A DNA stretch of 64,000 nucleotides from NCBI GenBank assembly GCA_964561455.1, contig CAZLPS010000009.1, positions 13,380-77,379 of the forward strand, in the 5' to 3' direction. Position numbers and translations under genes: made by a program. Shown in pieces: positions 4,011-57,037 of this stretch (position 1 is its first letter; every line of letters begins with the position of its first letter). Source of the stretch: an uncultured Opitutales bacterium (GTDB lineage: Bacteria; Verrucomicrobiota; Verrucomicrobiia; Opitutales; JABDGR01). The notes below the pieces were generated by a model. The model worked only from the letters and a program-made list of their open reading frames with translations, ran no database searches and was not told where the DNA came from.

Positions 4011-4116
4011 GAATTCCCAAATTCCACCCTCATGCCCCCATGCCCGTAAAGCCACCAACCACCAAGCACCAAGTCACCAAGCACTAAAACACCTCCCGAT
4101 CCCAAATTCCAAATTT
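4011..4116. repeat. Heptamer-periodic degenerate repeat tract (CACCAAG and CCAAATT flavours)
   Basis: The tract reads in 7-nt phase: gaattcc caaattc caccctc ... caccaac caccaag caccaag tcaccaa ... ccaaatt ccaaatt. It lies directly upstream of tRNA-Pro. Confidence 0.6.
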
Positions 4117-6722: not shown

Positions 6723-6835
6723 GAGCGGAGAGCGGGGAGAAAGTAGGCAGGAATTAGCACACCGGAAAACGTTCCACGCTCAATGTTTAACGCTTAACGC
6801 TCAAGGGCAAGCAGTTGTTGTCTCCGCGCGACCAT

Positions 6836-8030: not shown

Positions 8031-8161
8031 GTTGGTTCATCTCCTTTAGGTTGACTGGTGAATGGTTTTCCACCTTCCAATCATCAGGAAACATGCCAAG
8101 CTTCGCTATATTCATAACCTATTGCGCAGTAACGTAATATCGAAAAATTGACCTTTCGTAT

Positions 8162-8227
8162 ATGCGCCAATATGGCGCATTTAATCGAGCTTTCGGGCTG
8201 CGGACTGAATGCGCCATATTGACGCAT
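8162..8227. promoter_or_regulatory. Two copies of a 19-bp inverted repeat (candidate operator) upstream of hsp20
   Basis: ATGCGCCA-ata-TGGCGCAT (8162-8180) has perfect 8-bp arms. ATGCGCCA-tat-TGACGCAT (8209-8227) has one arm mismatch. The centres are 47 bp apart, 130-200 bp upstream of the hsp20 start. Confidence 0.4.
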
Positions 8228-8269
8228 AAAGCCCGGCCAATACTCCCATCGCTTACGAGAGTACTAATT

Positions 8270-9994: not shown

Positions 9995-10117
9995 GGCAGA
10001 CGCCGGGGACTATGCCCGTAAACCTTTACGGGTTAGCGCATTAGGCAACGGGTTGTCAAACCTATAATTTGGGCGGGGCTATCAGGTGCCGAAATTAGCT
10101 GGAAGCGGGGAGGTTAA

Positions 10118-10155
10118 GTTTACGGTTTACGGTTTGCGGTTTACCGTTTTACGGG
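10118..10155. repeat. Heptamer array, GTTTACG flavour
   Basis: The array reads gtttacg gtttacg gtttgcg gtttacc gttttacgggg. A related palindrome, cccgtaaa-cc-tttacggg, lies at 10013-10030. Confidence 0.6.
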
Positions 10156-14034: not shown

Positions 14035-14106
14035 GAAACACAGAGAACACGGAGAAAGTTCCTAAAGTGCAAGCGGTAAAAATCCCCGCCGTGTCCTCCG
14101 TGCTTA
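14035..14106. repeat. Inverted pair of CACGGAG-flavour heptamer repeats
   Basis: The arms gaaacacagagaacacggagaaag and ccgccgtgtcctccgtgctt lie between the ABC ATPase start and the MFS stop. The same flavour recurs at 53643-53750 and near 7486-7505. Confidence 0.5.
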
Positions 14107-17383: not shown

Positions 17384-18976
17384 ATGATGGCAAATCCACC
17401 TCTTGCCATGACTTCCCCTATTTCATATCATCGGAAATATTTTGCGGTCCTGGCCGCGTTGCTCGCGGCTGGCGTTTTTGCGAGCCCCGCTCACCTCGGA
17501 GCGGCAGACGCCCCGGCCGCATCCGCCGCTTCCCCCGCCCAACCGGCCGACGGCGTCGAGAAATCCGTCGTCAAGATTTTCGCCACGATGCGCTATCCCG
17601 ACGTTTTTAAGCCCTGGACGAAGGGCGCGCCGCGGGAAATCTCCGGTAGTGGCGTCATCATTGACGGCAATCGCGTTCTCACCAACGCCCACATGGTGCT
17701 GTATGCGAGCCAGATTCAACTGCAAGCCAATGGCTCGGGCGAAAAAGTTTCCGCCACCGTGATCGCGGTTGCGCCGGGCATTGACCTGGCCTTGCTCAAG
17801 GTGGATGACCCGACGTTTTTTGACAATCATCCCCCGTTAGCGCGCGCCTCCAAACTGCCCGACAACAAGGACTCGGTGTTGGTTTACGGCTATCCCACTG
17901 GCGGCAACAACCTCTCCATCACCAAGGGCATTGTTTCGCGCATTGAATTCACCAATTACAATGGCTTTACGGCGGGCCTGCGCATCCAAGTGGACGCACC
18001 CATCAACCCCGGCAATAGCGGCGGCCCGGCCGTCGCCAACAACCAGATGATTGGTCTGGCCTTCAGCCGCCTCGGCGGCGCGGACAATATCGGGTACATC
18101 ATCCCCAACGAGGAAATTGACCTGTTTTTGAACAGCAGTGCCAGCGGCGATTACAAAGGCAAGCCCGGCATGTATGACGATTTGCAGACCCTGGAGAATC
18201 CCGCTCTGCGTCCCTACCTGAAAATTGACAAAAACGTCCATGGCATCATCCTGAACCAGCCCTTCAGCAAGGACCCGGACTACCCGCTGAAGAAATGGGA
18301 CATTGTTACCAAAATTGGCGACACCCCCGTGGATGACGAAGGCATGATTACCGTGGGCAGCGACTTGCGCCTGGCGTTTGAATATTATGTTCAGAAAATC
18401 GCCAAGGACGGCAAGGTGCCGCTGACCGTCGTGCGCGACGGCAAGGAACTGGCGGTACAAGTGCCGGTCTCGCCCGAGCACCCGGCGCTGATTCCCGGCC
18501 TCAACGGCAAAAATCCCTCGTATTACATTTTTGGCCCCATGGTGTTTTCCGCCGCCACCGAGGAATTTATGGACAGTCTTGGCAGCTCCGGCACGATGAG
18601 CTATTTGAGCTATATCGGCAGCCCGCTGGTCACTCGCCGTGGCGATCAACCGGCCTTCCCGGGCGAACAACTGGTGGTTATTGCCTCGCCCTTCTTTTCG
18701 CACAAGTTGGACCTCGGCTATGAGAAGCAGCCGGTCGCCTGGGTCGTGAAGAGCGTCAATGGCGTGACGATCAAAAACTTGGCTCACCTGGTCCAAGTCC
18801 TCAATGACTCGAAGGACGAATATCTGAAATTTGAATTCGCCGGCACCGGCCTCGAAACTTTCGTCTTCCCGCGCCAGGCCATGAAAGACTCGACGGACGA
18901 AATTCTTACCGACAACGATATCCGCTCCCAAGCTTCGCCGGACGTCCTCGCCACCCTGAATAAAACGGCAAAGTGA
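17384..18976 (+). CDS. Deg/HtrA-type S1C serine protease, copy 1
   Basis: The catalytic triad context is TNAHMV, DLALLKV and GNSGGPA. A signal-like N-terminus and a C-terminal PDZ-like region are present. Confidence 0.85.
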   Translation: MMANPPLAMTSPISYHRKYFAVLAALLAAGVFASPAHLGAADAPAASAASPAQPADGVEKSVVKIFATMRYPDVFKPWTKGAPREISGSGVIIDGNRVLTNAHMVLYASQIQLQANGSGEKVSATVIAVAPGIDLALLKVDDPTFFDNHPPLARASKLPDNKDSVLVYGYPTGGNNLSITKGIVSRIEFTNYNGFTAGLRIQVDAPINPGNSGGPAVANNQMIGLAFSRLGGADNIGYIIPNEEIDLFLNSSASGDYKGKPGMYDDLQTLENPALRPYLKIDKNVHGIILNQPFSKDPDYPLKKWDIVTKIGDTPVDDEGMITVGSDLRLAFEYYVQKIAKDGKVPLTVVRDGKELAVQVPVSPEHPALIPGLNGKNPSYYIFGPMVFSAATEEFMDSLGSSGTMSYLSYIGSPLVTRRGDQPAFPGEQLVVIASPFFSHKLDLGYEKQPVAWVVKSVNGVTIKNLAHLVQVLNDSKDEYLKFEFAGTGLETFVFPRQAMKDSTDEILTDNDIRSQASPDVLATLNKTAK

Positions 18977-19009: not shown

Positions 19010-20632
19010 ATGCAAGCCCTCCTCCGAAATCTTCATGGCTCACCCGGGTCGCACAGGTTGGGCTGGCTGGCCGGAGCCTTGTTTTGCGGGAACCTCCTTC
19101 AAGCGGCAACGCCACCGGCCGACGACGCAAACCCCACCGTCCCGTCCGCCACCTCGACCGCCACCGTGCCTGCGGCCGCTGCCTCGAGCGCCGTGGAAAA
19201 CTCAGTGGTGAAAATTTTCTCCACTGTTCGCAACCCCGATTTTGGGCGGCCTTGGACCAAAGCCACGCCAACGCAAATCAGCGGCAGCGGGGTGGTCATT
19301 GATGGCAAACGTATTCTGACCAATGCCCATGTGGTGCACTATGCCAGCCAAATTCAAGTGCAGGCGGCCCATTCGGGCGAAAAGGTTTCGGCGAAGGTTG
19401 AGATCCTGGCCACTGGCATTGACCTCGCCATTCTGACCCTGGATGACCCGGCCTTCTTTGACACCCATCCGCCGCTCCCGCGGGCGACCAAGATTCCCGA
19501 CCCCAAGGATTCCGTTATCGTTTACGGCTTTCCGACGGGCGGGACCAGCTTGTCCGTCACCAAGGGCATTATTTCCCGCATCGAATTTGCCAGCTACAAC
19601 GAAGGCGTCGCCGGTTTGCGCATTCAAATTGACGCCGCCATCAATCCGGGCAACAGCGGCGGGCCTGCCGTGGTCAATGACCAGATGGTCGGCCTGGCCT
19701 TCAGCAAGCTCAGCGCGGCGGATAACATCGGCTACATCATTCCCGGTGAGGAAATTGAACTGTTTCTCAAGGACATCGCTGACGGGCATTACGACGGCAA
19801 ATGGGCCATGTACGACGAAACCCAAAAGCTGGAAAACAGCGCCATGCGCCAATACCTCAAGCTTGGCCCGGCCCAGCATGGCGTCATGGTCGCCGGCCCC
19901 TTCAACGACAATCCCGACTATCCGCTTAAGAAATGGGACGTGATATCCAAGATAGGGGACCGGCCCATTGATGACGAGGGCATGATCAACCTTGGCAACG
20001 ATGTCCGGGTTAGCTACCGGTTCTTTGTGCAAAAAATTGCCCAGGACGCCAAAGTGCCCCTGACCATTATCCGCGACGGCAAGGAACAAAACATCCAACT
20101 GCCGGTGGGGAAATTCCGCCCCATGCTCATTCCTTTCCTTGGCGACAACTATCCTTCCTATTACGTCTTCGGCCCAATGGTATTTACCAAGGCCACGCAG
20201 GAATTTGTCGGCCGTCTGGGCGCAACGTCCGCGCAGAACGCGCTCAACTTCCAAACTTTGCTCAGCACCATTGGCAGCCCGCTGGCGTTGCGTCGGGGCG
20301 ACAAACCGGCATTCGCCGGTGAGGAACTGGTCGTCGTCACCGCGCCGTTCTTCCCGCACAAGCTCGATGTCGGTTACATCCAGAGCCCGGTTTCGTGGGT
20401 GGTGAAGAGCGTGAACGGTATCGCAATCAAGAATCTGGCGCACCTCGTGCAGGTGCTGAATGATTCCAAGGACGAGTATCTGCGATTTGAATTTGCGGGC
20501 CGGGACGTCGAGCTGTTCATTTTCCCGCGCCAGGCCATGAAAGATTCGACTGAGGGCGTTCTGACCGACAATGACATCCGCGCCCAGGGTTCGGCGGACG
20601 TGTTGCCGACGGCGGCCAAAGCCGCCAATTAA
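19010..20632 (+). CDS. Deg/HtrA-type S1C serine protease, copy 2 (tandem paralog)
   Basis: The triad context is TNAHVV, DLAILTL and GNSGGPA. The protein is collinear with copy 1 over the full length, for example the shared LAHLVQVLNDSKDEYL(K/R)FEFAG ... FPRQAMKDST. Confidence 0.85.
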   Translation: MQALLRNLHGSPGSHRLGWLAGALFCGNLLQAATPPADDANPTVPSATSTATVPAAAASSAVENSVVKIFSTVRNPDFGRPWTKATPTQISGSGVVIDGKRILTNAHVVHYASQIQVQAAHSGEKVSAKVEILATGIDLAILTLDDPAFFDTHPPLPRATKIPDPKDSVIVYGFPTGGTSLSVTKGIISRIEFASYNEGVAGLRIQIDAAINPGNSGGPAVVNDQMVGLAFSKLSAADNIGYIIPGEEIELFLKDIADGHYDGKWAMYDETQKLENSAMRQYLKLGPAQHGVMVAGPFNDNPDYPLKKWDVISKIGDRPIDDEGMINLGNDVRVSYRFFVQKIAQDAKVPLTIIRDGKEQNIQLPVGKFRPMLIPFLGDNYPSYYVFGPMVFTKATQEFVGRLGATSAQNALNFQTLLSTIGSPLALRRGDKPAFAGEELVVVTAPFFPHKLDVGYIQSPVSWVVKSVNGIAIKNLAHLVQVLNDSKDEYLRFEFAGRDVELFIFPRQAMKDSTEGVLTDNDIRAQGSADVLPTAAKAAN

Positions 20633-20656
20633 GCTGCGTCCGCCCATATTCGTGGC

Positions 20657-21433
20657 ATGAGCACCGACCCAACCAGGCGATTCAGCACCCGCGTCGCCGA
20701 TTATGTCCGGTTTCGCCCGCGCTACCCTGCGGCGGTGATTGACTTGCTGCGGTCGGAAATGGGCTTGCAGCCCACCCATGTCATTGTGGATGTCGGTTCG
20801 GGCACGGGTTTTTTGAGCGAACTCTTTCTCGACCAGGGGTACCGCGTGTTCGGAGTCGAACCCAATGCGGAAATGCGCGCGGCGGGCGAACAGTTGCTGG
20901 CTGCCCGGCCCGACTTCACCAGTGTAGCTGGCACCGCGGAGGCGACCACCCTCGATCCGCAAACAGCGGACTTCGTCGTGGCTGGCCAGGCCTTCCACTG
21001 GTTTAAGCCGGCGGAGGCGCGGCGGGAGTTTCAACGCCTGCTCCGGCCATCCGGCTGGGTGGTGCTAGTCTGGAACGACCGCAAGGACCATGCCTCCGGA
21101 GTCTATGGAGCCTACGAGCAAATCATTCTCGATTTCCGCACGGATGCCGCTGCGGATAAGCGAATGCTTTTTTCCAAAGATTCGGCGGAACTCGCCGCTT
21201 TCTTTGCGCCCCAGCCGGTTATTCACCGTGTCGTCCCGGGCGTCACCCAGGAATTCGATTTTTCCGGTCTCCTTGGCCGGATGCTGTCGTCGTCTTACGC
21301 ACCGCAACCCGGGCATCCCCGGCATGAGCCGATGGTCGCGGCGCTGCGACGCTTGTTCGACGAGCATCAGCAGGATGGCAAGGTGCGCTTTGAGCATGTG
21401 ACGGAAATTTATTTCGGCCGGTTGGGAAACTGA
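20657..21433 (+). CDS. Class I SAM-dependent methyltransferase (Methyltransf_11-like)
   Basis: Motif I is VIVDVGSGTGFLSELF. The sequence VAGQAFHWF is characteristic of this group. Confidence 0.8.
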   Translation: MSTDPTRRFSTRVADYVRFRPRYPAAVIDLLRSEMGLQPTHVIVDVGSGTGFLSELFLDQGYRVFGVEPNAEMRAAGEQLLAARPDFTSVAGTAEATTLDPQTADFVVAGQAFHWFKPAEARREFQRLLRPSGWVVLVWNDRKDHASGVYGAYEQIILDFRTDAAADKRMLFSKDSAELAAFFAPQPVIHRVVPGVTQEFDFSGLLGRMLSSSYAPQPGHPRHEPMVAALRRLFDEHQQDGKVRFEHVTEIYFGRLGN

Positions 21434-24827: not shown

Positions 24828-24830
24828 AAC

Positions 24831-25056
24831 TGAAGAGGGAAGGGTAAAGGGTGAAGAGTGAAACGCGTAATTTTGAATTATGAATTACGAATTTTGAAAT
24901 CCGGAACGGACTGAGGGGCGGTAGGGACGAAAGATGAGGTTTGAAACAAATAAGTCGGAAATTTCAGAAGTAAAATTTAGATTGAGATGGCTTCATCCTT
25001 CATCCCTCATCCTTCATCCTTTCGCTCTCATCCCTTGTCTCCCAGCGGTCTCAGCT
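24831..25056. repeat. Heptamer arrays flanking the aroA-tyrA intergenic region
   Basis: The purine-rich left array reads tgaagag ggaaggg taaaggg tgaagag tgaaacg, followed by cgtaatt ttgaatt atgaatt acgaatt ttgaaat. The pyrimidine-rich right array reads cttcatc cttcatc cctcatc cttcatc ctttcgc tctcatc and runs into the tyrA stop. Confidence 0.6.
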
Positions 25057-25894: not shown

Positions 25895-26464
25895 TTAACT
25901 GCCCGGTTTCGCAACCGGCAGCGCGGCCAGCGCCGGCGGCAACTTGTCGGCTTCGTAAGTCGGAAAACTCATCTCCAACAGGGACACATGGGGTACGGCG
26001 AAATGCGCCTGACCCTCGCTGCGGTCCACGAGCACCAGCACGGCAGCCGTGACGGCACCCGCGCCGGCAATGAGGTCGAGGCATTCTTGCACGCGCCCGC
26101 CGCGGGTGATGACATCTTCGACCACCAGCACGCGCTCACCGGGGGCAAACTTGAAATTGCGGCGCAGCGCGAGCTTGTCATTCACCTTTTCGGCAAAGAC
26201 AAAGCGCTTGTTCGTCTGCCGGGCGATTTCCTGCCCGAGGACCAATCCGCCCATCGCTGGCGCAAGGACCGTGGCAAAGTCGCGCGCGGTGAATTTCGCC
26301 AGCAGCATCTGGCAAAGGCGCGTCACCGCTTCCATGTTCTGGCACACCTGCGCGCACTGGAAATAATGCCCGCTGTGCAGCCCAGAGCGGAGGACGAAAT
26401 GCCCCTCGAGCAGCGCGCCGGTCTTCTTGAAAATGCTCAACACCTCATTGGCGGATGAATCCAT
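25895..26464 (-). CDS. pyrE: Orotate phosphoribosyltransferase
   Basis: The sequence FVLRSGLHSGHYF is present, with the PRPP-binding motif VLVVEDVITRGG. Confidence 0.88.
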   Translation of the reverse strand: MDSSANEVLSIFKKTGALLEGHFVLRSGLHSGHYFQCAQVCQNMEAVTRLCQMLLAKFTARDFATVLAPAMGGLVLGQEIARQTNKRFVFAEKVNDKLALRRNFKFAPGERVLVVEDVITRGGRVQECLDLIAGAGAVTAAVLVLVDRSEGQAHFAVPHVSLLEMSFPTYEADKLPPALAALPVAKPGS

Positions 26465-26495
26465 GGGAAAACCGTAAGGGATTGAGGTTCAAAGG

Positions 26496-26678
26496 CAAGA
26501 AGGTTGCAGCGAGAAGCGAGAAGTTAGGAGCTAGAATCTAGAAGCCAAACCCAAACAATTCTGGCTTGAGCTGAAATATTCCGCTCCCTGCTCCCCGCTC
26601 CCTGCTCCCCGCTCCCCGCTTCTAGCTTCTAACTCCTAGCTTCTAACTCCTAGCTTCCCCCCGCTTCATTCTTGACCC
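26496..26678. repeat. Inverted pair of heptamer arrays (TAGAAGC/GCTTCTA and GCTCCCC flavours)
   Basis: The left array reads caagaag gttgcag cgagaag cgagaag ttaggag ctagaat ctagaag. The right array reads ccgctcc ctgctcc ccgctcc ctgctcc ccgctcc ccgcttc tagcttc taactcc tagcttc taactcc tagcttc. The reverse complement of the left matches the right. Confidence 0.7.
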
Positions 26679-26716
26679 CACCGCCTCTTTCCGGCAATTT
26701 CTTCCCTTTCCGTCAG

Positions 26717-26792
<76 letters not shown>

Positions 26793-27040
26793 CCTTTAAG
26801 TCATTGTTTTTCAATGGAAAGCACCACGTTGGCCTGATTGGCGCTCGAAGGCTGAATATATTTCTTGGGCACTACTTGGCCACTTGTGGGGTCCTAAAAG
26901 TTACAGCTGCAAATTTAGTCTGCCGGGTACGGATACTGGAAGGATAAAGGTTGAGGGATGAAAGATGAATACGGACTTCCTGGTTTTACCATTCCGTTCG
27001 CTTTTGCGCTGCGGGCACTACACCCCATATCTCCTTTACA

Positions 27041-28861
27041 GTGCTGGGTGTAACCTTGGGACAGCTGATTTCAGCATGTCCGATGAACTTCGCTGTCCAC
27101 TTCCATCCCAGCAAGTTGCCCGGTCATTTTCTGACAGTGCCGCCGCCCGCAACCTTGGAGGCAAGACTTCGACGGCACCCTTTGCTTCCCGGTCGCGCGT
27201 GGCTGGCGTTGCTGTTGGCGATAATCATGGGCCTCGCGTCGGGCCCGCGCGCTGAGGCGCAGACGATGGTATGGTTGGGCTATAATCCCTCTTGGGCGAC
27301 TTACAGCAATTGGTCCCCGGATGCGGTTCCGAATTCAACAGCGGCCGAAGCGCTGATCGACAGTAGTAAATCTCTATCAGGCCCAACTTATGGGGATAGC
27401 GCCACTTTGGCGATTAACATCGTTTTGAACAATCTGACCTTCGATTCCCTGAATGCGTATACAAATACCGCCCCCCTCAATTTTGTGCTAACCAGCATTC
27501 CGCCCTATAACACGTTGACCTTTGCCGGCAGTTCTCCGTCGTTGACCATGACTGCGGCGTACAACGGCACTGCCACGATTAATTCCCCGATCATTCTGGG
27601 CAGTTCACTCCTCATCTCGAACAATGGCACGAGCGCCGGGCCACAACTCATCCTGGAAGACACGGTTGATCTTGCGGGCAATAACGTGACCTTTTCCGGC
27701 ACGAGCAACACGTCGGTTTCCGGCAGTATCACGGATTCTGTTGGTGCAGGCAACCTCACCCTAAGCTCGGGCGTGCTCATTCTCAACGGCGTCAATACTT
27801 ACACCGGATTGACCACGGTGAGTGCGGGCACGCTCTTGCTCAGCGGCGCGGGCACGCTGGGCGCTGCCACCGCCGCCCTGACAGTAAACGGCGGCAACTT
27901 GGACCTCGGCGGCACCACGCCGAATAATATCGGCACGGTTACGATTAGTGGCGGGAACATTCAAAACGGCACGCTGACCAGCACCGCCGACTACGCCGGG
28001 CAAAGCGGCACGGTGAGTGCGATTCTGGGTGGGACGGTTGGGCTGAATAAGACGGCCGGCGGCACGCTGATCTTGAGTGGCGCCAATACCTACACGGGGG
28101 CCACAAGCGTGTCGGCGGGCACGCTGGAATTGAATGGGCCCAATGGCGCCCCAAGTGTCAGTAACACCAACACACTGACCATCAACAATGGCGGCACGCT
28201 TCTGACTGACACCAGCGGGCAGCTCAATGCGGGAGTCAAGCTGGTGCTCAACGGTGGCACCTGGGCCACCAATGCGCTAAACTCCACCAGTGCCTCGGCC
28301 CAAGCCGCCTTCACCGCCAACCTGAACACGCTGACCCTGACTGCCACGTCGAACCTCACCCTCGGGAACGGCAGCGGCAGCGCCACCAACACCATCAACT
28401 TCGCGGCCAGCCAATCGGTGAGCTGGACTCCCGGACAGATACTCTATATCAACCATTGGACAGGAGAAGCCTCGAACGACGCGATTGCCGGCGGCGGCGG
28501 CCAGGACGAAATTATCTTCGGCAACTCGCCGGCCGGCCTGAGCGGCGGGCAGCTGGGCGAAATCATCTTTGTCAACCCGCAGGACGCAGCCAACGGGATG
28601 ACGGGCGCCAGCGGCAACTTCTCAGCCGTTATCCTGCCCACGGGTGAAGTAGTGCCCTATGTCGTCGCGCCGGAGCCGGGCACGGTGCCGGCGGGCGCGG
28701 CCCTGGCGGCCCTGGCCCTCCTGCGCGAATGGCGCCGACGCAAGAGTGCACAATGGCTAATGGAAGCTGGAAGTTGGAATCGGGAATTGGGGAGTTGGAA
28801 TTTGGGAGTCAGGATACAGGAGGGTAACAAACCCATCATTGCATTGGCGACGATGGCGTAG
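27041..28861 (+). CDS. PEP-CTERM-anchored protein with autotransporter-associated beta-strand repeats
   Basis: The signal peptide is LALLLAIIMGLASGPRAEAQ. Repeated units such as GAGTLLLSGAGTLG, GGTLILSGANTYTGATSVSAGTLEL and LTLS.GVL.LNG.NTYTG are present. The C-terminus, APEPGTVPAGAALAALALLREWRRRK, is a PEP-CTERM sorting signal. The start may be 27083, and the last roughly 38 codons run through a heptamer array. Confidence 0.75.
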   Translation: MLGVTLGQLISACPMNFAVHFHPSKLPGHFLTVPPPATLEARLRRHPLLPGRAWLALLLAIIMGLASGPRAEAQTMVWLGYNPSWATYSNWSPDAVPNSTAAEALIDSSKSLSGPTYGDSATLAINIVLNNLTFDSLNAYTNTAPLNFVLTSIPPYNTLTFAGSSPSLTMTAAYNGTATINSPIILGSSLLISNNGTSAGPQLILEDTVDLAGNNVTFSGTSNTSVSGSITDSVGAGNLTLSSGVLILNGVNTYTGLTTVSAGTLLLSGAGTLGAATAALTVNGGNLDLGGTTPNNIGTVTISGGNIQNGTLTSTADYAGQSGTVSAILGGTVGLNKTAGGTLILSGANTYTGATSVSAGTLELNGPNGAPSVSNTNTLTINNGGTLLTDTSGQLNAGVKLVLNGGTWATNALNSTSASAQAAFTANLNTLTLTATSNLTLGNGSGSATNTINFAASQSVSWTPGQILYINHWTGEASNDAIAGGGGQDEIIFGNSPAGLSGGQLGEIIFVNPQDAANGMTGASGNFSAVILPTGEVVPYVVAPEPGTVPAGAALAALALLREWRRRKSAQWLMEAGSWNRELGSWNLGVRIQEGNKPIIALATMA

Positions 28862-29186
28862 TGTGAATGCGCAATCGGAAAGGCGTTGAAGCAACCGGGC
28901 GTCGGAAGTTAGAAGTTAGGAGCTGGAAGTTGGAATAGGGGAGACTGGGGAATGCCGGACGGGGTCTGGATGCCGGATGGGGTCCGGCTGTTCAAGTTAA
29001 CCTGAAGTGGGACTATGAGCTGAACGATGGCCAGTTAAAGCGTCGCGACGCGACGCGCTGTTCTGGTGCCGGCTTGGTTCCGTGGATTGAAATCCACGGT
29101 TATTTTCGGCCCTCGCTACGCGAGGCGTTGTCGTCCGGGACGGAAGTTTTTTTCCTGTCTACGGTCTCCCCGCTCCCTGCTTCTAC
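28761..29186. repeat. Three GGAAGTT/GCTCCCT-flavour heptamer arrays
   Basis: Array 28761-28823 reads tggaagc tggaagt tggaatc gggaatt ggggagt tggaatt tgggagt. Array 28903-28960 reads cggaagt tagaagt taggagc tggaagt tggaata ggggaga, in direct orientation. The complementary array at 29164-29186 reads tctcccc gctccct gcttcta. Confidence 0.6.
29080..29107 (+). terminator. Candidate intrinsic terminator
   Basis: A perfect 8-bp stem (ccgtggat-tgaa-atccacgg) is followed by ttattttc. Confidence 0.4.
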
Positions 29187-29965
29187 GCGGTTACAGCAGG
29201 TTTATTTTCGACCCGCGACCGGTAAACGACGTCCACGACATTGCGGATGAATTGCTCATCGGTGATGCCTTCGGTGGCTTCGGCAGGGAAGGTGACTTTG
29301 GCGCGGAAGTGGCCAGCCAGTTCCGCGAAGAGTTCCACGCGGGAGACGGCATCGAAGGTGTCGCGCCGCAGAACAGCCTGGAGGGCAATGGCGGCTTCGC
29401 CGGGCGCGACGAGTTGGCGCAGGCGGGCGGCAAGGTGCGGGTAGGCGCGCAACGAATTGAATTTCCCAGCGAGCAGTTGGTCAAGATTGGGTTCCGCCAG
29501 TTCGGGTTGGTGAATGACCAGGGTGTTGCCGGCGATGTCGCCCAAGCGCTGGCATTTGGGCGTGAACCAGCAGACCAGCCCGCCCAGGAAATAGAACAGC
29601 GGCAGCCCGTCCACGGCCCGCAGCAGATTACGCAGGACGATTTGGCTGAAGTGCAGCCGCAGGCCCTCGGCATCCACCACCCGCAACCGGTAGAGCCGCT
29701 TGCCAACGGTCTGCCCGCGCCAATACCATTCGCAGGCAATGCCGTAGCCGATGCTGATGACAAAAAAGCCCAACACCTGCAGCGCAGTCGAAAGGTTGTC
29801 GCTGAAAATGCTCAGCAACCGCAAGACAAGGGTGAGGACATAGAGAATCGCGTAGACGCAAACCGCATCCAGCATCCAGGCCAGAAAACGGGTAACCGGC
29901 CCCGCAATCTCCTGCGAGAAGACAATGCCTTCCGGCGTGCGAATTTGCAGCGTCGAAGTAGTCAT
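29183..29965 (-). CDS. RDD family membrane protein (last gene of cluster)
   Basis: The sequences WYWRGQTVGKRLYRLRVVDAEG and AVDGLP..Y fit the RDD domain pattern. It has three TM helices. Its start overlaps the upstream stop by 4 nt. Confidence 0.8.
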   Translation of the reverse strand: MTTSTLQIRTPEGIVFSQEIAGPVTRFLAWMLDAVCVYAILYVLTLVLRLLSIFSDNLSTALQVLGFFVISIGYGIACEWYWRGQTVGKRLYRLRVVDAEGLRLHFSQIVLRNLLRAVDGLPLFYFLGGLVCWFTPKCQRLGDIAGNTLVIHQPELAEPNLDQLLAGKFNSLRAYPHLAARLRQLVAPGEAAIALQAVLRRDTFDAVSRVELFAELAGHFRAKVTFPAEATEGITDEQFIRNVVDVVYRSRVENKPAVTA

Positions 29966-37900: not shown

Positions 37901-38533
37901 TTATTTATAGATCACGCGGGTATCGCACATACGATCGTGCAATCCGCGCTTTTCGGCGTCAAATCCAACCATGATATACCCGATGCAGAGAATCATTGCG
38001 CTCACGATCTTGCTGGCCCAGCGACCCAACGCCCGCAGGTACGAGACGGGTCCGCCGTCGGCAGTGACGACTTTGATCCGGCACGCCATCTTGCCGAGGG
38101 TGGCGCCATACTTTCCGATGAAAAAGACTTCATAGGCGATTCCAATCACCAGCCCGAGCACGCCAGCAGTGATTTTCTGGCCCGCCGACTCACTCGCCAT
38201 GCTTTCCTGGGTCTGGATGGCACTCAGGCCAAGCGCCAGCCGAAAAAGGATCGAGAATATATTCATTACGATTGCATCCAAAAACCAGGCCAGAATGCGT
38301 ATCCAAAACCCAGCGTAACGAAACGCCAGGGGATCAATGCGCGCGCCCTCGGCCAGCTTCTGCATGAAAATAGGTTTGCAACCGGCGCAGACGTAACTGT
38401 CGCCATGTTTGATCATCTCATCGGCGGCAAAGAGTTTGCCGCATTCCACGCATACTCGCGTCGCGCCACCGCCCGCTGTTCCTAACGGCGGCGGAACGGG
38501 GTTTGGCTCGGGATTCGAATTCCAGTCGCTCAT
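37901..38533 (-). CDS. Zinc-ribbon + RDD family membrane protein (paralog B)
   Basis: The N-terminus is CVECGKLFAADEMIKHGDSYVCAGCKPIFMQKLAEG. The RDD body contains RYAGFWIRILAWFLD and GATLGKMACRIKVV. It is collinear with 38670-39314. Confidence 0.8.
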   Translation of the reverse strand: MSDWNSNPEPNPVPPPLGTAGGGATRVCVECGKLFAADEMIKHGDSYVCAGCKPIFMQKLAEGARIDPLAFRYAGFWIRILAWFLDAIVMNIFSILFRLALGLSAIQTQESMASESAGQKITAGVLGLVIGIAYEVFFIGKYGATLGKMACRIKVVTADGGPVSYLRALGRWASKIVSAMILCIGYIMVGFDAEKRGLHDRMCDTRVIYK

Positions 38534-38669: not shown

Positions 38670-39314
38670 CTATTTGTAAATCACGCGGGTGTTGCACAAG
38701 AAATCCTGCGCCGCCCGCTTTTCCTTGTCAAACGCCGCGGGGAGAAAGGCCGCCAGTTCCAGATAAATGTTGGCCCGGGCAATGTTCTTGCAAAACGCAC
38801 GGCTCAATGCGCGCCGGTACGACACGCTTTCGTTTTGGCCCGTTACCACCCGGATCTTGCACGCCATTTTGCCCAAAGTGGCGCCATATTTGCCAATCAT
38901 CAGGGTCTCATAGACGGTCATGATGATCGTCCGGGCCACCAACACCCAAATAGACGCCATGAAAAAAACGCTCGGCAATACATTAGCTGACGGCCGGGAG
39001 GCGGTGGCCAAAAGCACCAGCACCAGTACCACGCCGATGGGAATGCCGACAACGATTCCGTCCACCAGTAGCGCTCCAAATCGCACCCAAAATCCGGCAT
39101 AACGCATTTCCGCCGGGTCAATCCGCGCGCCTTCCGCCAGCTTTTGCATGAAAATCGGTTTGCAACTGGCGCAAACGTATGCCTCCCCGTGCTTGATCAT
39201 TTCTTCCACGGCAAATACCTGGCCGCATTCAACGCACGCGTGCGTCGCGCTTCCCGCTGGCCCCATGGGCGGCGGTACAGAACTTTGTCCAGGGTTTGCC
39301 TGCCAATCACTCAT
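38670..39314 (-). CDS. Zinc-ribbon + RDD family membrane protein (paralog A, first gene of cluster)
   Basis: The N-terminus is CVECGQVFAVEEMIKHGEAYVCASCKPIFMQKLAEG. The RDD body contains RYAGFWVRFGALLVD and GATLGKMACKIRVV. Confidence 0.8.
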   Translation of the reverse strand: MSDWQANPGQSSVPPPMGPAGSATHACVECGQVFAVEEMIKHGEAYVCASCKPIFMQKLAEGARIDPAEMRYAGFWVRFGALLVDGIVVGIPIGVVLVLVLLATASRPSANVLPSVFFMASIWVLVARTIIMTVYETLMIGKYGATLGKMACKIRVVTGQNESVSYRRALSRAFCKNIARANIYLELAAFLPAAFDKEKRAAQDFLCNTRVIYK

Positions 39315-39633: not shown

Positions 39634-40821
39634 ATGCAAAACATCATTGTCACCGAGCCCTACGTGCCTGTGCCGCCCAAGCATGGCAACTTTTGGCCCG
39701 CCCTGTGCGGTCGCATTTTGCCGTGGTTCTTGCGGAAATCCTATGGCGTTGTGCAGTTCGATCTCCGGAACCTCGAGCGCCTGCGGGAATCCCTGCGCGC
39801 CGGTCATGGCATTGTCCTCATGCCCAATCATTGCCGGGACGAGGACGGCTTTGTGGTCGGCCAAATCTCCGTAAAACTCCGTTCCTGGTTTTACTACATG
39901 TCCAGCTGGCATGTGTTCAAGATGGGTTGGCTCCAAGGGTTCATGCTGCCGCGCATCGGCCTTTACAGCGTCAATCGCGAAGGCGCGGATCGTTCCTCGG
40001 TGAAAACGTCGGTGGACATCCTCGCCCATGCGCGCCGGCCGATCGTCATCTTCCCGGAAGGCTATTTGGGGCGCAGCAACGACCGGCTGAATGCGATGAT
40101 GGACGGCCCCGCCCTTATTGCGCGCGCGGCCGCCAGGAAGCGCGCCCAAATCAACCCGACGGGAAAAATTGTCGTGCATCCCATCGCCCTGCGCTATCAC
40201 GTGCTCGGTCCCCTCGCACCGGGCGTCGCGGGCGTTTTGACGGAAATTGAACAACGCCTTGCGCTGCCTCAGGGCGCGAAACTCCCCTTGCGGGAGCGGG
40301 TGGATAAAATTGGCGAAGCACTGCAAGCCAAACGGGAAATCGAACACCTCGGCCAGGCCCAAACCGGTCCGCTCGCGCCTCGCCTCGCCCACCTTATCCA
40401 GGTGCTTCTCCAACCGCTCGAAGATGAATGGATTGGGGCGCGCTATCACAGCGAGCCCGTGCAGTCGCGGGTGCGCCGCCTCCGCGTGGCCATTGTTCCT
40501 GGTTTGGTGAAAAAAGATCTCCCCGAGGCCGAGGTCAAACGCCGCTGGAAGCACCTGGCCGACATTTATCTTGCCCAGCAATTGGACGCCTATCCGCCAG
40601 ATTACCTGGCCGGCGATCCTCCTCCCGAGCGCCTGCTCGAGACCATCGAGCGCTACCAGGAGGATTTGACCGACAAATTGCAACCTTATGTCCCGCTTGC
40701 CGTAACTATTACGATCGGTGAAGCCATCGAAGTCAACGCCGGCAGAGCGCCCCATGGGGCGGACGACCCGTTGTTGCAAGCCGTGGAGGAACAATTGCGG
40801 TCCATGCTGGGGCTGAAATAG
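39634..40821 (+). CDS. Lysophospholipid (PlsC-family) acyltransferase-like protein
   Basis: The HX4D motif occurs in PNHCRDEDGF and the FPEG block in VIFPEGYLGR. The long antisense ORF 39625-40794 has no motif and is rejected. Confidence 0.8.
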   Translation: MQNIIVTEPYVPVPPKHGNFWPALCGRILPWFLRKSYGVVQFDLRNLERLRESLRAGHGIVLMPNHCRDEDGFVVGQISVKLRSWFYYMSSWHVFKMGWLQGFMLPRIGLYSVNREGADRSSVKTSVDILAHARRPIVIFPEGYLGRSNDRLNAMMDGPALIARAAARKRAQINPTGKIVVHPIALRYHVLGPLAPGVAGVLTEIEQRLALPQGAKLPLRERVDKIGEALQAKREIEHLGQAQTGPLAPRLAHLIQVLLQPLEDEWIGARYHSEPVQSRVRRLRVAIVPGLVKKDLPEAEVKRRWKHLADIYLAQQLDAYPPDYLAGDPPPERLLETIERYQEDLTDKLQPYVPLAVTITIGEAIEVNAGRAPHGADDPLLQAVEEQLRSMLGLK

Positions 40822-40941
40822 TTTACGGTTTGCGGTTTACCGTTTACAGTTGGGACATTAAGGCATCAATTCTGACCCCGAACTACCTTTAGCTTGCATC
40901 GTTTTGCGAACCGAAAACTGTAAACCGTAAACTGCTCCCTT
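40822..40941. repeat. Inverted pair of GTTTACG-flavour heptamer arrays between convergent genes
   Basis: The left array reads gtttacg gtttgcg gtttacc gtttaca. The right array reads cgaaccg aaaactg taaaccg taaactg and is the reverse complement of the same flavour. Confidence 0.65.
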
Positions 40942-40945
40942 CCTA

Positions 40946-43102: not shown

Positions 43103-43108
43103 TGGATA

Positions 43109-43260
43109 AGTTTCGCGTTTCGGGTTTTGCGTTTCAGGTTGGTCCACCAATTCAGCGCCCGGGTCGGCGGCAAGTGTTCCGCCCGCGACGCTCAGCGCGC
43201 CCGGGTTGGTTTCATTTCGGCAAACTCGAAACTCAAAACCCAAAACTCGAAACCAAAACT
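43109..43260. repeat. Inverted pair of TTTCGNG-flavour heptamer arrays between convergent genes
   Basis: The left array reads agtttcg cgtttcg ggttttg cgtttca ggtt. The right array reads aaactcg aaactca aaaccca aaactcg aaaccaa aact. About 80 nt of GC-rich loop lies between them. Confidence 0.65.
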
Positions 43261-47695: not shown

Positions 47696-47773
47696 GACTT
47701 GGTGCCCTGGCGCTTGGTGCTTGGGCTTATTCGCCCACGGTGTTATTTCGTTATTGTAACCGCAAACCGTCAC
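47696..47773. repeat. Heptamer tract (CTTGGTG flavour, complement of the 4051-4090 tract; plus GTAAACC flavour)
   Basis: The first tract reads cttggtg ccctggc gcttggt gcttggg. The second reads gtaaccg caaaccg tcacctt. Confidence 0.5.
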
Positions 47774-53644: not shown

Positions 53645-53750
53645 AACAAGGAGGAGACGGAGAACGCGGAGAGGAAGAGTTTACAGTTTACGGTTTACCG
53701 TTTACAGTTTCCACCGTGTACTCGGTGTCCTCCGTGTTTCAAAACTTTTT
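53643..53750 (+). terminator. Composite nested heptamer-repeat hairpin followed by T7; candidate recF terminator
   Basis: The outer arms are gaaacaaggaggagacggagaacgcggag and caccgtgtactcggtgtcctccgtgtttc. They enclose tttacag tttacgg tttaccg tttacag. The sequence aaaacttttttt follows, directly before the ruvC ATG. Confidence 0.45.
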
Positions 53751-54682: not shown

Positions 54683-54819
54683 CACGCGAAGCCGCGAAGT
54701 GGCGAAGATTAAAATCGCCCACGAACCAACCCGAATGACCTTGGCCAATCAAGAACCCCAATTCATACGCTTTCGTGCTCAAAATCCTTCGCGTTTTCGC
54801 GCCTTCGCGTGCGCCCTCC
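54683..54819. repeat. Inverted pair of GCGAAG-flavour heptamer arrays
   Basis: The left array reads cacgcga agccgcg aagtggc gaagatt. The right array reads tccttcg cgttttc gcgcctt cgcgtgc. Confidence 0.55.
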
Positions 54820-54858: not shown

Positions 54859-54891
54859 TGCTCGGGAAGGGACTTGAACCCATCTGCCACC
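54859..54891 (-). other. tRNA 3'-end-like fragment (candidate att remnant at an island boundary)
   Basis: The minus strand reads GGTGGCAG ATGGG TTCAAGT CCCTT CCCGAGC A. This is a T-arm with a canonical GTTCAAGTC loop (one stem mismatch) plus a 7-nt acceptor 3' strand and a discriminator base. No matching 5' acceptor strand (GCTCGGG) or D or anticodon arms lie upstream. Confidence 0.35.
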
Positions 54892-55148
54892 GCGAAGCTA
54901 AGTTGCTCATTAACGCGGACTTAGTTGATTGTGAATGGATTAGAACTGGAAGCAAGATACACCTAGTTGCAAGAAAGATAAACAAAATTCATTGATTCTG
55001 GCAACCTCTTGGCAACCTCTATTCGAAAATTGGAAACGCTCGAATTGGAATATCTAAATCAGTATAACAAGGGCTGGACGAGACCGGGGTAGGTATTCAA
55101 GCTAATCGAGCATGCAAGAGAAGTCTAATCGAGCACCTAGAAGCGGGG

Positions 55149-56438: not shown

Positions 56439-57037
56439 GGCAACGCACCTAAAACACGCCAAAGAAAACAACAATTTCGCGGAATTTATTGAACTTTGCA
56501 AGAAAACCCATCCTCACGCCATCCAGCGGCACTTTCATGCCGTGGTTAATTTGTTACTGGCTCGTTATCGTTGGTCGCTTAACGGACATTGAAGTTTCCG
56601 GGCAAAATGCTTGAAATGGGACGACCGCCTCCGCCCCCTCCTTATGGGCTCGTACAGGATTGCCACAATGAACACAAGTAAACGGGGTCTTAAAATCCTT
56701 TCCTTTGTATTGGCTACGAATTTCGAGAGCATTGGCAATGCCGATACGTTCGCCTTGGTAGATAACTCCGCCCATAGATCTTATTTAACTCCTCGCCACC
56801 ATCGCGCCCTACCCACCCAGCTTGCCCGGAGCGCTCGCAACTGCGCTGGTACCTCACTGCCTGGCCAGATGCGTGACGGCCGGGCTCCGGGGGTGACTTG
56901 GCGGATCATTACCAGCGTAGCGGGTGGGACATAGCATTTTGGGAGTATCCCTATTGCGCGCAGTCCATTTTTACTTTGTCAGGTAGAGATATTTCTGGTA
57001 ACGGATTCACGACGAAAATGGATCAGGAACCCCCACG

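What the first reader, a model, noticed from the sequence alone, without database searches (positions are those of the whole stretch)
26496..26678. Dispersed family of degenerate heptanucleotide-periodic repeat arrays in intergenic DNA
Many intergenic regions consist of 4-12 tandem, imperfect 7-nt units. Each array has a flavour, and flavours recur at distant loci. GTTTACG occurs at 10118, 40822, 40900 (rc) and 53680. CACGGAG occurs at 14035, 53643 and 7486. TAGAAGC/GCTCCCC occurs at 26496-26678 and 29164. GGAAGTT occurs at 28761 and 28903. GGATGAA/TTCATCC occurs at 24831, 25001 and 26935. CACCAAG occurs at 4051, with its complement at 47696. TTTCGCG occurs at 43109 and 43222. GCGAAG occurs at 54683 and 54785. 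This locus is the clearest. A purine-rich array (cgagaag cgagaag ttaggag ctagaat ctagaag) faces its complementary array (gcttcta gcttcta actccta gcttcta actccta gcttc) across a roughly 25-nt loop, preceded by five gctcccN units. They are not CRISPRs (no constant repeat with unique spacers), not REP/BIME-like single palindromes, and not coding. I do not recognise them as a described element class.
Basis: seen in the sequence. Interest (0 to 1): 0.6.

Follow-up and report, generated by a model that had tools for sequence, protein, structure and literature searches.

The report
Seven-base repeat hairpins between genes
The DNA between genes of this Opitutales (Verrucomicrobiota) bacterium holds many short arrays of imperfect 7-base tandem repeats, often in inverted pairs that fold into long hairpins; the pattern is real, but it is a kind of bacterial repeat already described in cyanobacteria, Xanthomonas, Geobacter and Beggiatoaceae, and its function is still unknown.

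Summary
The window has 16 period-7 arrays in 11.3 kb of non-coding DNA, against 0.1 expected from shuffles. There are none in 52.7 kb of coding DNA, and no other period that is not a multiple of 3 is enriched.

At the focal locus, a purine-rich array (26505-26549) and its complement (26618-26657) flank a 35-nt unique stretch and a GCTCCCY array. The whole block sits exactly between the back-to-back -35 boxes of hpt and tRNA-Phe. Related Opitutales genomes show a growth series at this site. The distance between the -35 boxes is 23 nt with no hairpin, then about 52 nt with one small GAGAAGC/GCTTCTC hairpin, then about 125 nt with mirrored arrays of another unit, then 174 nt in the window.

Other arrays span stop-to-stop or stop-to-start spacers. 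Some spacers are about 90% identical between genomes whose third codon positions are only about 60% identical.

The arrays are not an undescribed class. They match heptanucleotide simple-sequence repeats (STRR-like), including the inverted pairs next to stop codons reported in Xanthomonas. They most likely grow in place by 7-nt slippage on hairpin arms. Some are probably kept as structural hairpins, but that function is unproven. This is a new member of a known kind, of modest interest.

The parts
26505..26549 (+). Focal left arm: purine-rich heptamer array (CGAGAAG CGAGAAG TTAGGAG CTAGAAT CTAGAAG)
26550..26580 (.). Non-repetitive stretch between the left arm and the GCTCCCY array (top of the hairpin)
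26581..26620 (+). GCTCCCY array of 5-6 units with a 14-nt higher-order period. On the - strand it reads GGGGAGC x5 and matches the G-quadruplex motif.
26618..26657 (+). Focal right arm: GCTTCTA/ACTCCTA array, complementary to the left arm
26471..26498 (-). Inferred hpt promoter (TTGCCT-16-TACGGT, about 7 nt before the ATG). It is conserved in L031, L033, L002 and L006. Its -35 box abuts the left arm.
   Evidence: Read. The consensus scan did not flag it, so this is inference.
26672..26700 (+). Inferred tRNA-Phe promoter (TTGACC-17-CAATTT), conserved in relatives. Its -35 box abuts the right arm.
   Evidence: alignment A3; inference
26717..26792 (+). tRNA-Phe (GAA)
25895..26464 (-). Phosphoribosyltransferase gene (hpt-like), divergent from tRNA-Phe
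24829..24903 (-). Pyrimidine-rich arrays in mRNA sense (CTTCACY, then ATTCAAA) ending at the aroA GTG start. This is the 3' side of the PDH-aroA spacer hairpin.
24987..25028 (-). GGATGAA array in mRNA sense, starting at the prephenate dehydrogenase (PDH) stop codon. This is the 5' side of the PDH-aroA spacer hairpin.
40817..40855 (+). GTTTACG array starting at the TAG stop of the acyltransferase gene
40905..40936 (+). CGTAAAC array, inverted partner, 9 nt before the stop of the convergent gene
43107..43140 (+). GTTTCGS array starting 4 nt after the LptF/G stop codon
43217..43258 (+). CGAAACT array, inverted partner, ending 2 nt before the stop of the convergent BamE-like gene
28751..28805 (+). 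TGGAAGY/TGGAATY array directly after the hydrophobic-RRRK C-terminus of the PATR protein. The ORF reads on through it.
28895..28936 (+). TTRGAAG array in the same orientation as 28751-28805 (a direct pair, not inverted)
26940..26969 (+). AAGGATG-type array upstream of the PATR gene
10112..10154 (+). GTTTACG array upstream of a small + strand ORF. Positions 10125-10149 are identical to 40821-40845.
53645..53737 (+). Hairpin with outer arms of CACGGAG type (period about 9). Its top is a GTTTACN x5 heptamer array (53673-53717). It lies between recF-like and ruvC.
   Evidence: (z -5.9)
4045..4080 (+). CCACCAA array about 110 nt upstream of tRNA-Pro
6773..6807 (+). ACGCTYA array in a spacer between two - strand genes
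47698..47728 (+). Weak CTTGGTG array (complement of the 4045 unit)
54683..54810 (+). Inverted pair of period-8 repeats (CGCGAAGC / CTTCGCGT). Same architecture but not heptameric.

Best explanation
These are heptanucleotide simple-sequence-repeat arrays of the kind called STRR or heptameric SSR in other bacteria.

Origin: they arise in place. A 7-nt unit (or a 14- or 21-nt block) taken from the local sequence is duplicated by slipped-strand mispairing. This typically happens on the arms of a small pre-existing inverted repeat, and both arms lengthen. The small hairpin becomes a long imperfect one with a mismatch about every seventh position. Growth stops at functional boundaries such as stop codons, start codons and -35 boxes, so the arrays fill the free spacer exactly.

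Consequences: inside transcripts the pairs fold into stop-to-stop or stop-to-start stem-loops. At least some of these are maintained by selection, most likely as 3'-end or intercistronic RNA structures. The focal array pair lies between two back-to-back promoters and is probably not in either mature transcript. There it acts at most as a DNA spacer or cruciform, with a G4-capable stretch, that separates the hpt and tRNA-Phe promoters. It is a recent and dispensable gain.

Shown: the arrays, their period-7 excess, their placement, the comparative series, and the spacer conservation. Inferred: the slippage mechanism, the coupling between the two arms, and every functional role.
For: Identity and non-randomness:
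- 16 arrays against 0.1 expected, all non-coding, period 7 only.
- 14- and 21-nt higher-order periods, as expected from block duplication.

Growth in place at the focal site:
- The distance between the two -35 boxes is 23 nt with no hairpin in L002 and L006.
- It is about 52 nt in L033, with a single GCGAGAAGC...GCTTCTC hairpin that shares the window's unit.
- It is about 125 nt in L031, with mirrored CTGGAAG/CTTCCAG arrays (mirror-order permutation p = 0.0065).
- It is 174 nt in the window.

Local seeding of the unit:
- In L002, PDH and aroA overlap (AAGGCATGAAAG). In the window, L034, L001 and L006, a GGATGAA array starts at the PDH stop and its complement ends at the aroA start.
- GGATGAA arrays sit on stop/start junctions in unrelated viral contigs.

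A property of the lineage or process rather than of one sequence:
- Viral contigs picked by one unit carry up to 15 arrays of other units per 10 kb.
- About 140 kb from Pelagicoccus and Opitutaceae relatives has none.

Paired arms fold well:
- z-scores are -2.7 to -5.9 for spacers with paired arrays and about 0 for most other spacers.

Constraint on the spacers:
- Spacer 40822-40945 is 112/124 identical to L026, while third codon positions of the flanking genes are 0.59-0.63 identical.
- The PDH-aroA spacer is 174/193 identical to L034, against 0.63 at aroA third positions. Mismatches fall in 4 of 103 paired columns and 15 of 90 unpaired columns.
- At the same sites, the two arms stay complementary while the unit differs between genomes: GGATGAA, GGAAAGC and AATGMAA at PDH-aroA; AGAAGCT and CTGGAAG at tRNA-hpt.

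Literature parallel:
- The Xanthomonas arrays show the same features.
Against: - No slippage event was seen directly. Three independent assemblies of the same strain are identical across the arrays.
- Indels between the window and L026 are not all multiples of 7. The 5' arm differs by 23 nt and the 3' arm by 14 nt.
- For the window's own pairs, the order of unit variants is not significantly mirrored (p = 0.06-0.42). The arms may be complementary only because they share a unit.
- One pair is direct, not inverted (28751/28895).
- The 25-nt identity between arrays at 10125 and 40821 suggests copying between loci rather than purely local birth.
- The arrays are absent from some close relatives (L002, L003, L029, L030), so no role is essential.
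- No transcript data exist, and the promoters are inferred from conserved hexamers only.
- The paired-versus-unpaired substitution test used a structure predicted from the same two sequences.
Confidence: 0.6

Rival explanations
1. The arrays are purely neutral or selfish mutational debris. A lineage-specific bias of replication or repair towards 7-nt slippage fills any tolerated spacer, and the hairpins are a by-product with no role.
For: - The arrays abut functional boundaries exactly, as expected if only purifying selection limits their growth.
- They are absent from close relatives, which have compact spacers instead: L002 has overlapping genes, and L029 has spacers of 15-23 nt.
- They occur in every type of spacer, whether convergent, divergent or co-directional.
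- Units are very diverse within one contig, which argues against one sequence-specific partner.
Against: - Array-bearing spacers, including their non-repetitive middles, are about 90% identical between genomes whose third codon positions are about 60% identical.
- The arms stay complementary in each genome while the unit differs between genomes.
- Substitutions are depleted in predicted stems.
Confidence: 0.25
2. The arrays are miniature mobile fold-back elements (MITE-like). Their terminal inverted repeats are made of heptamer repeats, and they are spread by a transposase or by copy-paste between loci.
For: - A 25-nt identical stretch, with the same order of unit variants, is shared by the arrays at 10125-10149 and 40821-40845. 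There is a 32-nt, 94% match to 53678-53709.
- 29166-29187 repeats the GCTCCCY-GCTTCTA junction of the focal locus.
- Spacer 40822-40945 is more conserved than neutral sites between genomes.
- The same units occur in unrelated viral contigs.
Against: - The internal sequences are single-copy in the window and in all loci fetched.
- No shared flanks or target-site duplications were seen.
- Most units are specific to one locus and resemble the ancestral local sequence.
- Intermediate sizes at the same site fit gradual growth rather than insertion.
- No transposase was identified among the window proteins scanned.
Confidence: 0.08
3. The arrays are binding sites for a protein that reads one heptamer per domain. 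Candidates are a cold-shock-domain protein on single-stranded RNA or DNA, or a transcription regulator reading heptameric direct repeats. On this view they form a regulatory network.
For: - Literature proposals exist for other heptamer arrays: CspB binds heptamer repeats (discussed in PMC4679880), Geobacter arrays were annotated as putative global-regulator sites, and Nostoc heptamers affected recO promoter constructs (bioRxiv 10.1101/2022.06.06.494920).
- Two arrays lie just upstream of tRNA promoters, and one lies upstream of the inferred promoter at about 10195.
- One strand of most arrays is T/C-rich.
Against: - The units are too diverse for a single sequence-specific partner.
- At one site the unit changes between genomes while the architecture stays.
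- Many arrays lie at 3' ends between convergent genes.
Confidence: 0.07

Closest known systems
G-rich heptameric repeats of Xanthomonas (GGGAATC) and Nostoc PCC 7120 (GGGGAYT), Rehm et al. 2015 (PMC4692102)
   Same: - Tandem 7-nt units, mostly 4 or more copies.
- Almost exclusively intergenic.
- Frequent convergent inverted pairs on opposite strands (70-75 per Xanthomonas genome).
- A strong bias to lie at or over stop codons.
- Position and type (single or pair) kept between related species while length varies.
- The focal GGGGAGC x5 stretch on the - strand is G4-capable like theirs.
   Different: There, one G-rich unit dominates the genome and G-quadruplex formation is the proposed property. 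Here, almost every locus has its own unit, most units cannot form G4, and the units resemble the local ancestral sequence. The host phylum also differs (Verrucomicrobiota, order Opitutales).
STRR (short tandemly repeated repetitive) heptanucleotide sequences of heterocystous cyanobacteria. The Calothrix PCC 7601 case is cited in PMC4692102; the name and details are from my own knowledge of Mazel et al. 1990.
   Same: Tandem heptanucleotide arrays dispersed in intergenic DNA, with several different units in one genome and unknown function.
   Different: STRR families are defined by a few fixed units, each repeated at very many loci. Here only GTTTACG recurs within 64 kb. Inverted pairing is not a defining trait of STRR.
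Heptanucleotide long simple-sequence repeats in prokaryotic genomes (the 2007 survey summarised in PMC4679880 and PMC4692102)
   Same: Period 7 is the most over-represented unit length among 5-11-nt repeats. The repeats are intergenic. Polymerase slippage with a 7-nt preference was proposed as the cause.
   Different: That work is a statistical survey. As summarised in the papers read here, it mentions neither hairpin pairing and boundary-to-boundary placement nor Verrucomicrobiota among the repeat-rich genomes it lists.
Geobacter metallireducens multicopy elements of four or five tandem heptanucleotide repeats (PMC2700814)
   Same: Arrays of 4-5 heptamers. One class was drawn as palindromic pairs, in intergenic DNA, and interpreted as regulatory.
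   Different: Those are multicopy families with a fixed consensus (GGACCGG; MTYCTGA) found by BLAST. Some lie inside genes.
TAACTGA direct repeats of marine Beggiatoaceae, cyanobacteria and Bacteroidetes (PMC4679880)
   Same: Intergenic heptamer direct repeats, often directly next to start codons and mixed with other heptamer repeats in some genomes.
   Different: A single unit, 2-6 copies, essentially never inverted (one indirect repeat in 170 sets).
REP/BIME elements of Enterobacteria (works like; not a member)
   Same: Intergenic imperfect palindromes, often between convergent genes or within operons, that form RNA stem-loops. In E. coli these are known to stabilise upstream mRNA (my own knowledge).
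   Different: REPs are a conserved 20-40-nt palindromic unit spread by a RAYT transposase. Here there is no conserved unit, and the arms are tandem heptamers.

Membership tests
Heptanucleotide simple-sequence repeats (STRR-like / heptameric SSR) | Head-to-tail tandem iteration of a 7-nt unit, 3 or more copies, imperfect copies allowed | tested here: met
   TRF and the self-match scan give 16 arrays of 4-11 units
Heptanucleotide simple-sequence repeats (STRR-like / heptameric SSR) | Period 7 over-represented relative to chance and to neighbouring periods | tested here: met
   16 observed against 0.1 expected; periods 4, 5, 8, 10, 11 and 13 give 0-1
Heptanucleotide simple-sequence repeats (STRR-like / heptameric SSR) | Location in intergenic DNA | tested here: met
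   16 of 16 arrays lie in the 17.6% of the window that is non-coding; none in 52.7 kb of coding DNA
STRR families in the strict sense / Xanthomonas GGGAATC family | One or a few fixed units recurring at many loci of the genome | tested here: inconclusive
   Only GTTTACG recurs (3 loci plus an inverted partner) in 64 kb, and most units are specific to one locus. A whole genome would be needed to decide.
Xanthomonas-type heptamer arrays (PMC4692102) | Convergent inverted pairs close together on opposite strands | tested here: met
   Four heptamer pairs (24829/24987, 26505/26618, 40817/40905, 43107/43217), with fold z-scores of -1.8 to -5.0 depending on the span folded
Xanthomonas-type heptamer arrays (PMC4692102) | G-rich unit able to form a G-quadruplex | tested here: not met
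   Only the GGGGAGC x5 array (26581-26620, - strand) matches the G4 motif; the other arrays do not
REP/BIME | A conserved 20-40-nt imperfect palindrome repeated across the genome | tested here: not met
   Self-BLAST of the window finds no shared palindromic unit
CRISPR | A constant 24-48-nt repeat separated by unique spacers of similar length | tested here: not met
   Units are 7 nt and contiguous, with no spacers
MITE / fold-back transposable element | Multiple copies with conserved ends and internal sequence, flanked by target-site duplications | tested here: not met
   Internal sequences are single-copy in the window and in 55 loci. Target-site duplications could not be resolved at this divergence.
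Intrinsic (Rho-independent) terminator | Short G+C-rich stem-loop followed by a U-tract | tested here: not met
   The scan finds no terminator-like site in the array spacers, and the stems are followed by no T-run
Any Rfam family | Match at or above the gathering score | tested here: not met
   Only the two tRNAs reach the threshold. Sub-threshold hits are generic long hairpins (plant miRNA precursor models).

The most novel reading that the evidence does not exclude
The paired heptamer arrays may be a selectively maintained class of 'evolvable hairpins'. On this reading they are boundary-to-boundary stem-loops (stop-to-stop, stop-to-start, -35-to--35) whose arms grow, shrink and change unit in step by 7-nt slippage and copying across the arms. 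They would serve as bidirectional 3'-end structures, as devices that put an upstream stop codon and a downstream start codon at the base of one stem (translational coupling or insulation), and as promoter spacers. The same GGATGAA/TTCATCC junction hairpin recurs in unrelated bacterial and viral contigs. That would make it a general and so far unrecognised solution, not a lineage oddity.
Probability: 0.25. Interest if true: 0.6.

Novelty: new member of a known kind. Interest (0 to 1): 0.33.

Why it matters
Heptanucleotide repeats have been reported as the most over-represented longer simple repeat in bacterial genomes. Neither the reason for the 7-nt preference nor any function is established.

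This locus set extends the phenomenon to Opitutales, for which full-text searches of the held library found no report. It also adds comparative evidence I did not see in the papers read here:
- A growth series at one site, from no hairpin, to a single small hairpin, to long arrays on both arms.
- Units that can be traced to the ancestral local sequence, namely an SD-ATGA gene junction and a promoter-spacer hairpin.
- Arms that remain complementary while the unit changes between genomes.
- Spacers conserved at about 90% where synonymous sites are near saturation.

If the structural role is real, these hairpins would be a cheap and quickly evolving way to build RNA or DNA structure between genes. 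If it is not, they are a clean natural record of a lineage-specific slippage bias.

There is also a practical point. The arrays break short-read assemblies, since two JGI contigs end inside them.

Tried and rejected
- Rfam at gathering and permissive thresholds gave only tRNAs and generic hairpin noise.
- Consensus promoter and terminator scans found no canonical terminator in the array spacers. They also did not flag the promoters I infer from conservation.
- A metagenome-contig scan with LptF/G returned only 24-28% relatives and was useless for comparison. Closer relatives came instead from a protein homologue search, cluster members and contig look-ups.
- The MITE reading was rejected because the internal sequences are single-copy.
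- The mirror-order permutation test was meant to show that one arm is an inverted copy of the other. It is significant only in L031 and L033, not in the window's pairs, so I do not claim arm-to-arm copying for the window.
- Covariation between the window and L034 gave no double compensatory changes, only 4 pair-preserving single changes.
- Strain-level length polymorphism was not found: L017-L019 and L032 are identical to the window.
- Host or taxon assignment of the array-rich viral contigs failed. There was no similarity to the window, no informative Pfam hit and only weak phage hits.
- The primary papers I recalled for the 2007 repeat survey and for small dispersed repeats in Nostoc are not held. 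I cite them only through papers I could read or as my own knowledge.
- CsrA-sponge and Shine-Dalgarno-decoy readings of the GGA-rich arrays were considered, but I had no way to test them.
Full report

Yes. Tandem Repeats Finder reports period-7 arrays at 26508-26545, 26581-26620 and 26618-26657, with 14- and 21-nt higher-order periods. The repeat finder pairs 26496-26545 with 26625-26674 at 76% complementarity.

A self-match scan (at least 15 of 21 positions equal to the base 7 nt downstream) finds 16 arrays in the window. All 16 lie in the 11.3 kb I class as non-coding. There, 200 dinucleotide-preserving shuffles give a mean of 0.1 arrays and never more than 2. The 52.7 kb of coding DNA has none. 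Periods 4, 5, 8, 10, 11 and 13 give 0-1 arrays, and the signals at multiples of 3 are coding repeats. The lag-7 match fraction is 0.276 in non-coding DNA and 0.250 in coding DNA.

Some corrections are needed. The complementary arms are 65-79 nt apart, not about 25. The GCGAAG pair (54683/54785) has period 8. The CACGGAG sites are hairpin arms of period about 9.

**2. Where the window comes from**

The aroA product finds its nearest relatives in metagenome-assembled genomes labelled Opitutales or Verrucomicrobiae, at 72-86% amino-acid identity. Pelagicoccus and Opitutaceae are at about 47%. Exact-protein look-ups recover the same strain from further samples (L017-L019, L032). These are identical to the window across the arrays, and two short contigs end inside an array. 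Closer relatives (L031, L033, L034) have 91-94% identity at first codon positions but only 0.57-0.65 at third positions.

**3. Anatomy of the focal locus**

The arrays lie between a phosphoribosyltransferase gene (hpt-like) on the - strand, whose ATG is at 26464, and tRNA-Phe at 26717-26792 on the + strand.

Two hexamer pairs are conserved in the relatives. TTGCCT-16-TACGGT ends about 7 nt before the hpt ATG. TTGACC-17-CAATTT lies about 10 nt before the tRNA. I read these as the two promoters. This is inference, because the consensus scan did not flag them. The array block (26505-26657) fills the space between the two -35 boxes, and the base of the hairpin (CAAGAA/TTCTTG) overlaps both boxes.

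The strand folds far better than shuffles: z = -4.8 and -3.7 as RNA, and -3.0 as DNA. The GCTCCCY array reads GGGGAGC x5 on the - strand and fits the G-quadruplex motif.

**4. Comparative series at the focal site**

| Genome | Distance between the two -35 boxes | What is there |
|---|---|---|
| L002, L006 | 23 nt | No hairpin |
| L033 | about 52 nt | One small hairpin, GCGAGAAGC...GCTTCTC, whose arms carry the window's unit |
| L031 | about 125 nt | Two mirrored arrays of a different unit, CTGGAAG.../...CTTCCAG |
| Window | 174 nt | The focal array pair |

In L031 the two arms share a 17-nt exact mirror, and the order of unit variants is mirrored more than in unit permutations (p = 0.0065).

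The array pair is therefore a lineage-specific gain. It grew at one site from a small inverted repeat, and it is not essential.

**5. The other arrays**

They occupy every kind of spacer and abut functional boundaries.

*Convergent gene pairs.* At 40822-40945 and 43103-43260, one arm starts at or within 4 nt of one stop codon, and the other arm ends 2-9 nt from the other stop codon. L026 has the same units at both sites, with unit-level length differences. L028 has no arrays, but its spacers still fold stop-to-stop, weakly (z = -1.75 and -2.0). L029 has spacers of only 15-23 nt.

*The PDH-aroA spacer.* In L002 the two genes overlap (AAGGCATGAAAG). In the window, L034, L001 and L006, a GGATGAA array begins at the PDH stop, and TTCATCC-type arrays end at the aroA start. 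L033 has the same architecture with GGAAAGC/GCTTTCC (z = -4.5). L031 has a decayed AATGMAA/TTKCATT version. The unit GGATGAA is what a 7-nt duplication of the ancestral SD-ATGA junction would give. Such a duplication is also the simplest way to separate two overlapping genes without damaging either.

*Folding.* Spacers with paired arrays fold with z from -2.7 to -5.9. Most other spacers are near 0.

**6. Neutral or constrained?**

Third codon positions between the window and L026 or L034 are 0.59-0.63 identical. Yet spacer 40822-40945 is 112/124 identical to L026, including its non-repetitive middle. The PDH-aroA spacer is 174/193 identical to L034 with no indel. Its mismatches fall in 4 of 103 predicted paired columns and 15 of 90 unpaired columns (Fisher p = 0.003). 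All four changes in paired columns keep a standard pair. The caveat is that the structure was predicted from the same two sequences.

At the same sites, the arms remain complementary in each genome even though the unit differs between genomes. This argues either for selection on pairing or for a process that copies one arm from the other. It argues against simple decay.

By contrast, the focal tRNA-hpt arrays are not conserved in sequence, only in architecture, and several relatives lack arrays altogether.

**7. A property of the process, not of one sequence**

Two viral-contig scans, one per unit, found GTTTACG x2.5 in 9 contigs and a 25-nt GGATGAA/GGATGAG string in 12 contigs. That makes about 16 independent contigs, with G+C from 0.30 to 0.70. 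Many of them carry numerous arrays of other units, often in inverted pairs: 15 in 10 kb (L036), 13 in 6.2 kb (L042), 8 in L037 and L047, and 7 in L048. GGATGAA arrays in these contigs again sit on stop/start junctions. About 140 kb from Pelagicoccus and Opitutaceae relatives has no array.

Contigs chosen for one unit thus prove rich in many units. This fits a lineage-level tendency to make or keep 7-nt duplications. It does not fit a single mobile sequence.

**8. What it is, and the rivals**

*Best reading (0.6).* These are heptanucleotide simple-sequence repeats that grow in place by slippage of 7-nt units, or of 14- and 21-nt blocks, on the arms of small hairpins until they meet functional boundaries. 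Some are then kept as structural stem-loops in transcripts. The focal pair is a dispensable spacer or cruciform between two promoters.

*Rivals.*
- Pure mutational debris (0.25). The spacer conservation argues against it.
- A fold-back mobile element (0.08). It is supported only by the 25-nt identity between 10125-10149 and 40821-40845 and by a few short dispersed copies. Single-copy interiors and the growth series argue against it.
- Protein-binding arrays (0.07). The diversity of units, and the change of unit at a fixed site, argue against it.
- Canonical intrinsic terminators are excluded.

**9. Comparison with what is known**

The closest description is of the Xanthomonas GGGAATC and Nostoc GGGGAYT arrays. 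They are intergenic, with 70-75 convergent inverted pairs per Xanthomonas genome. They are biased to lie at or over stop codons, and their position is conserved between species while length varies (PMC4692102).

Related reports are:
- Three repetitive heptanucleotides in Calothrix (cited in PMC4692102).
- The general excess of heptanucleotide repeats in bacterial genomes, with a proposed polymerase-slippage cause (summarised in PMC4679880).
- Geobacter metallireducens arrays of four or five heptanucleotides, one class of them palindromic (PMC2700814).
- TAACTGA repeats (PMC4679880).
- Nostoc heptamers near promoters (bioRxiv 10.1101/2022.06.06.494920).

Full-text searches found no report for Verrucomicrobia or Opitutales.

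It is met by the literature, though not by Rfam.

**10. Verdict**

The interpretation as an undescribed class is not supported. This is a new member of a known kind, with useful comparative detail on origin and constraint. Interest is 0.33.

Noticed in passing
window 8031-8269: This spacer has no heptamer periodicity but folds exceptionally well (z = -7.35 on the - strand). It contains a near-perfect palindrome of about 30 bp (UAUGCGUCAAUAUGGCGCAUU.../...AAUGCGCCAUAUUGGCGCAUA) and a second hairpin at its 5' end. There is no Rfam match.
   Followed up: partly
window 10002-10065; L002 17647-17710: A 64-nt non-coding stretch just upstream of the pyrimidine-nucleoside-phosphorylase-like gene (8615-9994, - strand) is 97% identical to L002, although third codon positions between these genomes are about 60% identical. 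It may be a conserved leader or regulatory RNA. There is no Rfam match at E <= 1.
   Followed up: partly
window 4494-6722 (- strand): This gene encodes a family-B DNA polymerase (Pfam DNA_pol_B plus exonuclease domain). It is flanked on both sides by heptamer arrays (4045-4080 and 6773-6807). The link to a slippage bias is pure speculation, but it is worth testing across genomes.
   Followed up: no
window 54860-54900 and 55149-62176: The sequence GGGACTTGAACCC plus flanks looks like the 3' part of a tRNA gene, but ARAGORN calls no tRNA there. It is followed by a lower-G+C stretch (ORF 55149-56438, G+C about 0.43, no Pfam hit) and a 1712-aa RHS-repeat/LysM protein. This may be an integrated island at a tRNA remnant.
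   Followed up: partly
window 28700-28861: The PATR-repeat protein ends in a hydrophobic stretch plus RRRK, like a sorting signal. The ORF then runs on for about 35 codons through the heptamer array before the first stop. The array appears to have displaced the original stop codon.
   Followed up: no
window 26462-26476: The inferred hpt -10 box (TACGGT) ends about 7 nt before the ATG, so hpt may be transcribed as a leaderless or nearly leaderless mRNA. The same spacing is seen in L031, L033, L002 and L006.
   Followed up: partly
window 17882-18945 vs 19520-20601: Two tandem paralogous trypsin/PDZ (HtrA-like) genes lie on the + strand at 79-84% DNA identity. The long - strand ORF 19202-21034 is a shadow of the second copy.
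   Followed up: partly
window 38334-38395 vs 39118-39179: A 62-nt direct repeat at 89% identity lies inside or near two neighbouring ORFs. It is unexplained.
   Followed up: no
L036 380-1600 (IMGVR_UViG_3300045016_000207), also L040: In this viral contig, a run of five different heptamer arrays (GCCGTCA, CGGGGAC, GACCGAA, GGGYCAG, CAGTCCT) lies inside a 487-aa ORF. The ORF stays open across them. Four more arrays fill the 140-nt spacer before the next gene. The density is 15 arrays per 10 kb, far above the window's.
   Followed up: partly
L016 5846-5892 and 15439-15478 (Bifidobacteriaceae MAG): Two clear heptamer arrays (ACATTCA and ACGATTT units) occur in an unrelated actinobacterial locus that was fetched only as a distant aroA hit.
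   Followed up: no
L018 and L019 (JGI contigs), L032, L034: Short-read contigs of the same or close strains start or end inside heptamer arrays. The arrays therefore break assemblies and may be under-represented in genome bins.
   Followed up: no
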